64,000 bases of DNA from a virus: IMG/VR virus record IMGVR_UViG_3300046507_000282, positions 29,888-93,887 of that record; one strand, 5' to 3'. A program made the translations under genes and the position numbers. This document shows, piece after piece, positions 10,819 to 10,923 of the stretch (position 1 is the stretch's first letter; each line of letters starts with the position of its first letter). Under the pieces are notes generated by a model. That model had not been told where the DNA came from. It searched no databases and worked only from the letters and a program-made list of their open reading frames with translations.

Positions 10819-10923
10819 TGGTTGCGAGGCCGGATTCGAACCGGCGTCACCGCAGAGTTTCAGGACCAGGGTAAATCCGATCCCTACTAAGCCGCAGAGT
10901 CCTAGGCCACTAGACGACTCGCC
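10819..10923 (-). ncRNA. tRNA-like RNA with ~30-nt extended anticodon arm
   Basis: GGCGAG...CTCGCAACCA ends like the adjacent tRNA-Met; D-arm GTCTAGTGGCCTAGGAC; T-arm GCCGG-TTCGAAT-CCGGC; 105 nt long. Confidence 0.75.

What the first reader, a model, noticed from the sequence alone, without database searches (positions are those of the whole stretch)
10819..10923. tRNA body whose anticodon loop is replaced by an extended arm with an AGUA/GAA (loop-E/sarcin-ricin-type) motif
Seen (minus strand): acceptor ends GGCGAG...CUCGCA-ACCA matching the neighbouring tRNA-Met, a normal D-arm and T-arm, and an anticodon-position stem CUGCGG/CUGCGG. Instead of a 7-nt loop there is CUU-AGUA-GGGAUCGG-AUUUACC-CUGGUCCU-GAA-ACU, an 8-bp hairpin sitting on an AGUA/GAA internal loop. 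The preserved pairing, with several G-U pairs, argues for selection rather than decay. Inference: either a non-decoding tRNA mimic (decoy for a tRNase, toxin or uncharged-tRNA sensor) or an intron-like insert that RtcB could seal after excision. No bulge-helix-bulge is visible and excision does not give a clean canonical loop, so the mimic reading is favoured.
Basis: partly seen in the sequence, partly recalled or inferred. Interest (0 to 1): 0.8.

Follow-up and report, generated by a model that had tools for sequence, protein, structure and literature searches.

The report
Phage tRNA look-alike with S-turn arm
A phage tRNA operon holds a gene for an RNA with an intact tRNA body whose codon-reading loop is replaced by a long rigid arm carrying a sarcin-ricin-type motif, so it almost certainly cannot decode and probably binds a protein; its job is unknown.

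Summary
At 10819-10924 (minus strand), 3-4 nt after tRNA-Met, lies a tRNA-derived gene. The Rfam tRNA model aligns it end to end (27.2 bits, threshold 29; E 7e-5 in the genome) with a 40-nt insertion in the anticodon loop. All core tRNA nucleotides are intact. The anticodon position carries a 6-bp stem, a CUU/ACU spacer, AGUA/GAA in sarcin-ricin orientation, an 8-bp hairpin and a 7-nt loop.

No excision register restores a loop with both U33 and a purine at 37. There is no bulge-helix-bulge and the insert is far too short for a group I intron. The phage, a roughly 94-kb temperate FelixO1-like proteobacterial myovirus, encodes RtcB but no splicing endonuclease and no Ro60.

I found two structurally analogous elements in unrelated phage contigs, L358 and L370. 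Each has an AGUA/GAA arm at the anticodon position of a different tRNA-like body. Earlier notes of this scan report the same design on other DNA.

Best reading: a non-decoding tRNA mimic with a protein-docking arm (about 0.5). Rivals are a decaying tRNA gene (0.25) and a spliced pre-tRNA (0.12). No orthologues could be fetched, so conservation of this copy is untested. It is a new variant of phage tRNA-like stable RNAs.

The parts
10918..10924 (-). acceptor stem, 5' strand (UGGCGAG). The 5' end is U 10924 in the Rfam register, or G 10923 in the register shared with tRNA-Met.
10899..10917 (-). U8, C9 and the D arm (GUCU / AGUGGCCUA / GGAC) with A14, G18G19 and A21. tRNA-Glu type.
10892..10897 (-). 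outer (anticodon-position) stem, 5' strand CUGCGG
10889..10891 (-). spacer CUU, opposite ACU (one U-A pair plus two pyrimidine-pyrimidine oppositions)
10885..10888 (-). AGUA, the 5' strand of the S-turn (bulged-G / sarcin-ricin type) motif
10862..10884 (-). 8-bp hairpin GGGAUCGG / CUGGUCCU with the 7-nt loop AUUUACC (10870-10876)
10859..10861 (-). GAA, the 3' strand of the S-turn motif
10856..10858 (-). spacer ACU
10850..10855 (-). outer stem, 3' strand CUGCGG
10846..10849 (-). 4-nt variable region UGAC (position 47 absent, as in tRNA-Glu)
10829..10845 (-). T arm GCCGG-UUCGAAU-CCGGC
10819..10828 (-). acceptor 3' strand CUCGCAA and encoded CCA. The 11-nt end CUCGCAACCAG is identical to that of tRNA-Met.
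10928..11004 (-). canonical tRNA-Met(CAU) immediately upstream (3-4 nt spacer), with a G1xA72 mismatch
11221..11248 (-). sigma-70-like promoter of the RNA operon (consensus match only)
8786..8804 (-). intrinsic-terminator-like hairpin plus U tract at the end of the RNA operon (consensus match only)

Best explanation
The gene makes a stable, non-decoding tRNA-shaped RNA, a tRNA mimic. It is transcribed with tRNA-Met, Glu, Tyr, Asn and Gly from one promoter. It is probably released by the host tRNA-processing enzymes (RNase P at the 5' end; the CCA is already encoded).

The elbow and core fold as in a real tRNA. Where the anticodon loop should be, the helix continues as a rod of about 20 stacked layers: 6 bp, two pyrimidine-pyrimidine oppositions and a U-A pair, an AGUA/GAA S-turn, then 8 bp capped by a 7-nt loop. 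S-turns are classic protein-recognition sites, so the arm most likely docks a protein while the tRNA body engages tRNA-binding factors.

The most likely role is in the fight over tRNA between phage and host. It could be a decoy for a tRNA-directed or sarcin-ricin-loop-directed nuclease, or an adaptor for RNA repair or quality control.

Shown here: the tRNA homology, the intact core, the absence of a usable anticodon loop, the motif in the right orientation, and the recurrence of the design in other phages. Inferred: expression, processing, the S-turn fold, protein binding and the biological role.
For: - Full-length tRNA model alignment at 27.2 bits with U8, A14, G18G19, A21, G15/C48 and the T loop UUCGAAU all in place. 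A decaying pseudogene would be expected to have lost some of these.
- No excision register gives both U33 and a purine at 37 (sequence, registers). The top loop AUUUACC has C at 37.
- AGUA-hairpin-GAA has the same 5'-to-3' order as the sarcin-ricin loop. Pyrimidine-pyrimidine oppositions lie below it, as in that loop (the comparison rests on textbook knowledge).
- The cloverleaf with the arm evaluates to -33 to -37 kcal/mol against an MFE of -39.7. MFE folding predicts the 8-bp hairpin.
- The insert is single copy in the phage, so it is not a repeated mobile element.
- The gene sits in a promoter-to-terminator RNA operon, 3-4 nt after tRNA-Met.
- Independent analogues exist. L358:228-347 has a Leu-type body and L370:2889-2998 lies inside a dense tRNA array of a 389-kb phage. 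Both carry outer stem, equal-length spacers, AGUA, a G-U-closed hairpin and GAA at the anticodon position. Stem closure and outer stems of 6-8 bp were not imposed by the search patterns; I estimate about 0.03 and 0.01 such hits by chance.
- The pattern was absent from the 401 Pseudomonadota genomes searched, so it is not part of ordinary tRNA sets.
Against: - There is only one sequence. No orthologue could be fetched, so neither conservation nor covariation of this arm is known.
- Thermodynamic signals are weak (z -1.1; a hairpin of 8 bp or more in 4.9% of shuffles).
- The generic AGUA/hairpin/GAA structure is not enriched in 4.4 Mb of phage DNA compared with shuffles (9 hits against 10-19). 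The two analogues were retrieved with patterns that required AGUAG...UGAA plus a T loop, so there is ascertainment bias.
- The acceptor end is irregular: a G x A mismatch, and either a 6-bp stem or no discriminator base.
- No expression data were available.
- No candidate partner protein was identified. The phage has no Ro60, and RtcB is about 50 kb away.
Confidence: 0.5

Rival explanations
1. Dead or dying tRNA gene. A Glu/Met-type tRNA gene suffered an insertion or rearrangement in its anticodon loop. The RNA, if made at all, has no function, and the AGUA/GAA motif and the hairpin are coincidence.
For: - The score is below the Rfam threshold.
- The acceptor stem has a mismatch and a one-base irregularity.
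- A 9-nt direct repeat ACUCUGCGG flanks the insert, which could be a scar of slippage or recombination.
- Folding statistics are weak.
- No homologue was found anywhere.
- The same operon holds other aberrant tRNA-like pieces.
- The generic motif is not enriched over shuffles.
Against: - Every conserved core nucleotide and tertiary partner is intact.
- The same unusual arm design recurs at the same position in unrelated phages.
- The element keeps an encoded CCA and tight tRNA-like spacing in the operon.
Confidence: 0.25
2. Intron-bearing pre-tRNA. A host or phage endonuclease removes the hairpin and the phage RtcB seals the halves, giving a Leu-type (UAG/UAA) or other decoder.
For:
- The phage encodes RtcB (Pfam 1e-128).
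- 'Enigmatic' introns have been reported in phage tRNAs (Devoto et al. 2019, PMC6784885).
Against: - There is no bulge-helix-bulge in the correct handedness.
- All registers give a pyrimidine at 37 or lack U33.
- The body is type I (4-nt variable region), unlike bacterial tRNA-Leu.
- The phage has no splicing endonuclease domain.
- 29-41 nt is far too short for a group I intron, and no Rfam intron hit was found.
- The analogues L358 and L370 cannot yield an anticodon loop.
Confidence: 0.12
3. Y-RNA-like adaptor. The arm is the docking helix for a host Ro60/Rsr-type or other RNA quality-control protein, and the tRNA body recruits a second factor. It would be a topological permutation of YrlA.
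For: - YrlA RNAs combine a tRNA-like domain with a protein-binding stem, occur in phages and lie in rsr-rtcB operons (Chen et al. 2014, PMC4201824).
- This phage has RtcB.
- Earlier notes of this scan link tRNA-like phage RNAs with Ro60/RtcB loci (unchecked).
Against: - The phage has no TROVE/Ro60 gene.
- The Rfam YrlA model does not hit the element. Its only hit is weak (21-26 bits against a threshold of 69) and lies on the tRNA-Met region.
- The arm shows no evident likeness to the YrlA stem consensus seen.
- The host is unknown.
Confidence: 0.1

Closest known systems
Phage tRNA-like stable RNAs of unknown function: T5 RNA1 (NC_005859 30501-30644) and T4 rnaC/rnaD, species 1 and 2 (NC_000866 70908-71171)
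   Same: They are encoded inside phage tRNA clusters. They keep a tRNA-type T arm and acceptor, have no usable anticodon arm, and their function is unknown (annotations; sequences).
   Different: No sequence similarity was found. T5 RNA1 and T4 rnaC/rnaD are 119-144 nt, have different inserts and no AGUA/GAA arm at the anticodon position. The present RNA keeps a complete cloverleaf.
Sarcin-ricin loop / loop E (bulged-G, S-turn) motif of 23S/28S rRNA
   Same: AGUA on the 5' strand and GAA on the 3' strand, in the same order around a hairpin, with pyrimidine-pyrimidine oppositions below (the motif definition is textbook knowledge).
   Different: The arm is capped by an 8-bp helix and a 7-nt loop instead of the C-G pair plus GAGA tetraloop that elongation factors and ribotoxins use. 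The fold is inferred from sequence only.
'Enigmatic' introns of Lak megaphage tRNAs (Devoto et al. 2019, PMC6784885)
   Same: Short non-group-I insertions in the anticodon region of tRNA genes of phages of bacteria, with no known splicing machinery.
   Different: The Lak inserts are described as leaving a recognisable tRNA when removed. Here no canonical anticodon loop can be restored.
YrlA-type bacterial and phage Y RNAs (Rfam RF02553; Chen et al. 2014, PMC4201824)
   Same: A tRNA-mimicking domain joined to a long helix that binds a protein, with a genomic link to RtcB in some bacteria.
   Different: The topology is opposite: YrlA ends lie in the long stem and its acceptor is closed. There is no model hit on the element and no Ro60 gene in the phage.

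Membership tests
Canonical tRNA (Rfam RF00005) | Score at or above the curated threshold (29 bits) | tested here: not met
   27.2 bits, full-length alignment. Not reported at gathering threshold.
Canonical tRNA (Rfam RF00005) | Conserved core: U8, A14, G18G19, A21, T loop UUCGAAU, 4-bp D stem, 5-bp T stem | tested here: met
   Alignment.
Canonical tRNA (Rfam RF00005) | 7-nt anticodon loop with U33 and a purine at 37 on a 5-bp stem | tested here: not met
   41 nt lie between positions 31 and 39. No excision register gives both U33 and R37 (with the registers).
Canonical tRNA (Rfam RF00005) | 7-bp acceptor stem followed by a discriminator base and CCA | tested here: inconclusive
   Either 7 bp (U1-A72, G2xA71) with CCA directly after position 72, or 6 bp with A73-CCA.
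Pre-tRNA with archaeal/eukaryal-type intron | Bulge-helix-bulge: two 3-nt bulges on opposite strands separated by a 4-bp helix, with the helix 5' of the bulge on each strand | tested here: not met
   In the required handedness, CUUA/GAAA gives only 2 pairs. The better AGU/ACU arrangement is the mirror image (sequence).
Pre-tRNA with archaeal/eukaryal-type intron | Splicing endonuclease available | tested here: not met
   No PF01974 match in the complete phage record. The host genome is not available.
Group I intron in a tRNA anticodon loop | A self-splicing core of about 200 nt or more with P3-P9 helices | tested here: not met
   The insert is 29-41 nt. No Rfam intron hit at E up to 10.
S-turn / sarcin-ricin / loop E motif | 5'-AGUA-3' opposite 5'-GAA-3', flanked by helices, in the orientation AGUA-hairpin-GAA | tested here: met
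   10885-10888 and 10859-10861, flush with the 8-bp helix.
S-turn / sarcin-ricin / loop E motif | Bulged-G fold (G-U-A triple, sheared A-G pair, A-A pair) | not testable with these tools
   No RNA 3D or probing tool is available. The nearest-neighbour model pairs AGU with ACU instead.
S-turn / sarcin-ricin / loop E motif | Conservation of the motif among homologues | not tested
   No orthologues could be obtained. Only analogues on other bodies were found (L358, L370).
YrlA / Y RNA (RF02553) | Covariance-model match, and a Ro60 (TROVE) gene in the same genome | tested here: not met
   No hit on the element. 21.6-26 bits (threshold 69) on the tRNA-Met region only. No TROVE domain in the phage.
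tmRNA | tRNA-like domain plus a tag reading frame | tested here: not met
   ARAGORN with tmRNA search finds none. Rfam tmRNA models score 7-9 bits.
Phage tRNA-like stable RNAs (T5 RNA1, T4 rnaC/rnaD) | Encoded in a phage tRNA cluster, tRNA-type T arm and acceptor, no decoding arm | tested here: met
   This is a descriptive class, not a homologous family: no sequence similarity.
Phage tRNA-like stable RNAs (T5 RNA1, T4 rnaC/rnaD) | Accumulates as a stable processed RNA during infection | not testable with these tools

The most novel reading that the evidence does not exclude
S-turn-armed tRNA mimics are a recurrent phage RNA device that nobody has described. A portable AGUA/GAA clamp arm is grafted onto different tRNA bodies (Glu/Met type here, Leu type in L358, a minimal body in L370). 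The arm docks one specific protein. One possibility is that it traps a host nuclease toxin that cuts tRNA anticodon loops or the ribosomal sarcin-ricin loop. Another is that it recruits the RtcB repair ligase to damaged tRNA.
Probability: 0.3. Interest if true: 0.8.

Novelty: new variant of a known kind. Interest (0 to 1): 0.6.

Why it matters
Phage tRNA clusters have been known for 50 years to hold tRNA-like RNAs of unknown function (T4 species 1 and 2, T5 RNA1). Recent work places phage tRNAs at the centre of defence and counter-defence: anticodon nucleases, PARIS, retrons and RtcB repair.

A tRNA body whose decoding loop is deliberately replaced by a defined protein-recognition motif would give a concrete, mutable handle (the bulged G) for finding the partner protein. 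It would also allow a test of whether phages use tRNA decoys.

The same design turns up on different tRNA bodies in unrelated phages, which suggests a modular RNA part rather than a one-off accident.

Tried and rejected
Searches for orthologues, all without result:
- BLAST of the element and of the whole operon against INPHARED phages and PLSDB plasmids matched only the canonical tRNAs.
- Whole records of 35 related IMG/VR viruses held no match. The more distant complete relatives have almost no tRNAs.
- Loci anchored on the neighbouring dUTPase in viral, metagenome and genome collections gave only relatives of 63% identity or less, without the RNA operon.
- Loci anchored on the Bro-N/ANT gene led only to unrelated temperate phages.
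- Portal relatives at 85% identity are short fragments that do not reach this region.
- dUTPase relatives at 76-78% identity exist on contigs of up to 92.8 kb.
- The genome search draws no 'relatives' for a virus record.

Pattern scans:
- D arm plus T loop found only L002, another odd Glu-type tRNA-like gene.
- An L370-specific clamp pattern found only L370 itself.

Readings considered and rejected:
- Archaeal virus with a BHB intron: raised by a weak C/D-box sR17 hit nearby, rejected because the tail and portal genes are those of FelixO1-like phages of proteobacteria.
- Group I intron, tmRNA and YrlA: no model support.
- attP fragment: the integrase lies about 15 kb away and the element is a complete cloverleaf inside an RNA operon.
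- Repeated mini-element: the insert is single copy.
- Antisense target of the top loop: its complement GGUAAAU is not enriched.
- The ARAGORN 'tRNA-Phe with a 203-nt intron' at 10329-10626 looks like a forced construct around a real T arm and CCA end.

Full report
Setting. The window is part of a complete 93,887-bp IMG/VR virus record with direct terminal repeats. Tail and portal proteins place it among FelixO1-like myoviruses of proteobacteria of about 90 kb; the best tblastn hits, at about 35% identity, are phages of Bordetella, Pseudomonas and Aeromonas. It carries a CI/LexA-type repressor, RecT, a PD-(D/E)XK nuclease, a tyrosine integrase and an RtcB RNA ligase. dUTPase relatives sit on contigs of about 93 kb in Burkholderia, Paraburkholderia and Caballeronia assemblies, which hints at the host group. 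On the minus strand, a sigma-70-like promoter (11248-11221) and a terminator-like hairpin (8804-8786) bracket a stretch with five canonical tRNAs (Met, Glu, Tyr, Asn, Gly) and much non-coding sequence.

The observation. The element begins 3-4 nt after the CCA of tRNA-Met. ARAGORN in default mode and Rfam at gathering threshold miss it. The Rfam tRNA model nevertheless aligns 10821-10924 over all 71 positions at 27.2 bits (threshold 29; E 6.8e-5 for the genome), placing 40 nt where the model has the 9-nt centre of the anticodon arm. In that alignment the body is a textbook tRNA:
- U1-A72 with a G2xA71 mismatch, then five Watson-Crick pairs;
- U8;
- D stem G10-C25, U11-A24, C12-G23, U13-G22;
- D loop with A14, G15, G18G19 and A21;
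- a 4-nt variable region UGAC, giving G15/C48 and lacking position 47;
- T arm GCCGG-UUCGAAU-CCGGC.

The D-arm half matches annotated phage tRNA-Glu genes, up to 19 of 19 nt. The T-arm and acceptor half matches tRNA-Met genes and ends in the same 11 nt as the neighbouring tRNA-Met. From textbook knowledge, U11-A24, U13-G22..A46 and the missing position 47 are the augmented D-helix signature of tRNA-Glu. One irregularity is that the acceptor/T stack is one base short relative to tRNA-Met. Either the stem is U1-A72 with CCA directly after position 72, or it has 6 pairs with A73-CCA.

The arm. Between U26 and the variable region lie:
- CUGCGG/CUGCGG (6 bp, 2 G-U);
- a 5' strand CUU-AGUA;
- the hairpin GGGAUCGG-AUUUACC-CUGGUCCU (8 bp, 3 G-U);
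- a 3' strand GAA-ACU.

AGUA and GAA abut the hairpin in the order AGUA-hairpin-GAA, the order found in the sarcin-ricin loop. Below them lie a U-A pair and two pyrimidine-pyrimidine oppositions, again as under the bulged-G motif of that loop (textbook knowledge). The cloverleaf with this arm evaluates to -33 to -37 kcal/mol against an MFE of -39.7, and the hairpin is part of the MFE. The statistics for a single sequence are modest. The whole-molecule z-score is -1.1, and a hairpin of 8 bp or more arises in 4.9% of shuffles of the 36-nt core. The G-U pairs fix the strand but do not prove selection. The insert is unique in the phage genome.

Why not an intron. The insert is 29-41 nt, so a group I intron is excluded, and no Rfam intron model hits. 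A bulge-helix-bulge needs, on each strand, a 4-nt helix strand followed by a 3-nt bulge. In that handedness CUUA/GAAA forms only two U-A pairs. The better-looking CUU / AGU:ACU / GAA arrangement is the mirror image and would not fit a splicing endonuclease (inference from the known geometry). The phage has no endonuclease domain PF01974.

I enumerated every way of keeping 7 nt between the stem strands. In ARAGORN's register the possible loops are CUUAGUA, CUUAGUU, CUUAGCU, CUUAACU and CUAAACU, and all have a pyrimidine at 37. In the Rfam register the loop starts GC, so U33 is lost. ARAGORN's call of tRNA-Leu(UAG) with a 29-nt intron is therefore a forced fit, on a type I body that bacterial tRNA-Leu never has. 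The top loop AUUUACC has U33 but C37, and it sits about 15 base-pair layers too far from the elbow to reach a codon.

Recurrence elsewhere. Orthologues could not be obtained (see below), so I looked for the design itself. A scan of IMG/VR for AGUAGGG...CCUGAA followed by a T loop gave 5 loci, and AGUAG...UGAAAC followed by a T loop gave at least 120. Most are ordinary tRNAs, because AGUAG is common at the start of the D arm. Two stand out:
- L358:228-347 has a Leu-type body whose acceptor is extended to an 18-bp helix. Its anticodon position reads GCUCU / C-AGUA / GGGUC... / GAA-C / AGAGU.
- L370:2889-2998 lies in the only gap of a dense tRNA array of a 389-kb phage. It has an 8-bp outer stem, CG-AGUA, a 7-bp G-U-closed inner stem and GAA-AC.

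In all three elements the spacers on the two strands have equal length (3/3, 1/1 and 2/2), and the inner helix starts with a G-U pair followed by G-C or G-U. The inner closure and the outer stems of 6-8 bp were not imposed by the patterns. I estimate about 0.03 and 0.01 such hits by chance. A third locus, L357:10443-10569, has a Tyr-type body with a 48-nt insert holding AGUA-GGGA...UCCC-GAA, but it is less clear.

There are caveats. The analogues were ascertained through the motif. An unbiased structural scan of 4.4 Mb of fetched DNA finds the generic motif no more often than in shuffles (9 against 10-19), although all three hits followed by a T loop are these elements. None of the 401 sampled Pseudomonadota genomes holds the AGUAGG...UGAAAC...T-loop pattern.

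Earlier notes of this scan, which are unchecked AI notes, describe the same design on other DNA: e1-5732236, e1-5697483 and e1-5937070 (the last with ends CGGAGUAG...UGAAAC). They also describe two cases where the motif was judged unconserved or chance: e1-5923667 and e1-5679758. I used them as leads only.

What it most likely is. The intact tRNA core, the encoded CCA, the operon position, the lack of any recoverable anticodon loop and the recurrence of the arm on different bodies point to a non-decoding tRNA mimic whose arm is a protein-docking site. I put about 0.5 on that general reading. The particular role (nuclease decoy, repair or quality-control adaptor) is inference.

RtcB is present but lies about 50 kb away. 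The phage has no Ro60, and the YrlA model does not hit the element. A decaying tRNA gene remains a serious rival (0.25), because nothing shows conservation of this copy and the acceptor end is irregular. Splicing is unlikely (0.12).

Comparison with known things. The nearest described objects are the tRNA-like stable RNAs of phage tRNA clusters: T5 RNA1, annotated as 'tRNA-like stable RNA with unknown functions', and T4 rnaC/rnaD. They share the setting and the loss of a decoding arm, but no sequence and no AGUA/GAA arm. Lak megaphage tRNAs have 'enigmatic introns' (PMC6784885). YrlA Y RNAs combine a tRNA mimic with a protein-binding stem in the opposite topology (PMC4201824). Four literature searches found no description of a tRNA-shaped phage RNA with a sarcin-ricin-type arm.

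Limits. Conservation, covariation, expression, end maturation, charging and the S-turn fold therefore all remain untested for this element.

Noticed in passing
window 10329-10407 (-): A second CCA-ended tRNA-like piece. It has a perfect T arm (CAAGG-UUCGAAU-CCUUG), an acceptor UCCCGG/CUGGGA-G-CCA, a shrunken D region and a 7-bp hairpin GUCGCGA/UCGCGGC with a 15-nt loop in place of the anticodon arm. ARAGORN instead forces a 'tRNA-Phe with a 203-nt intron' over 10329-10626.
   Followed up: partly
The Rfam YrlA model does not hit it; the best hit is a weak mascRNA-like match of 15 bits.
   Followed up: partly
window 1231-1321 (-): ARAGORN calls a 91-nt tRNA-Leu(tag) here. The Rfam tRNA model does not report it, its T loop is atypical and it lies under long ORFs, so it is possibly a false positive.
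   Followed up: no
window 10928-11004 (-): The phage tRNA-Met(CAU) has a G1xA72 terminal mismatch, reminiscent of the 1x72 mismatch of bacterial initiator tRNA, and three G-C pairs in the anticodon stem offset by one position. Initiator, elongator or Ile2 identity is undecided.
   Followed up: no
window 10547-10604 (-): A weak match to the archaeal C/D-box sRNA family sR17 (26 bits against a threshold of 36, E 0.003) inside the non-coding block between the tRNA-like elements. Probably chance in a bacterial phage.
   Followed up: no
L358:200-360 (+), IMGVR_UViG_3300023220_000152: A Leu-type tRNA-like RNA whose acceptor stem is part of an 18-bp perfect helix (no free CCA) and whose anticodon loop is replaced by an AGUA/GAA arm. 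Its D arm matches the tRNA-Leu attP fragments next to the integrase of T7-like cyanophages S-CBP1 and S-TIP37.
   Followed up: partly
L370:2889-2998 (+), IMGVR_UViG_3300021057_000274: An S-turn-armed tRNA-like RNA (8-bp outer stem, CG-AGUA / GAA-AC, 7-bp inner stem, T arm) in the only gap of a dense tRNA array of a 389-kb phage. No CCA, and no BLAST relatives in INPHARED.
   Followed up: partly
L002:12837-12917 (-), IMGVR_UViG_3300047319_001872: An 81-nt Glu-type tRNA-like gene in a 313-kb phage. It has the same D arm as the element, and a 7-bp anticodon-position stem (UCUUCAC/GUGAAGA) closed by a 5-nt loop. ARAGORN calls it 'His(atg)'.
   Followed up: no
L357:10443-10569 (+), IMGVR_UViG_3300013094_000283: A type II tRNA-Tyr body with a 48-nt insert at the anticodon loop, flanked by a GUGU repeat and holding AGUA-GGGA...UCCC-GAA. 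A normal tRNA-Tyr exists in the same 22-tRNA cluster.
   Followed up: partly
window 16566-17294 (+), about 25933-27081 (+), 19677-20999 (+): A FelixO1-like myovirus with terminal repeats that also carries a CI/LexA-type repressor, a tyrosine integrase and RecT. Several relatives are flagged as proviruses, and dUTPase relatives lie on contigs of about 93 kb in Burkholderiaceae assemblies. Possibly a temperate or plasmid-like lifestyle.
   Followed up: no
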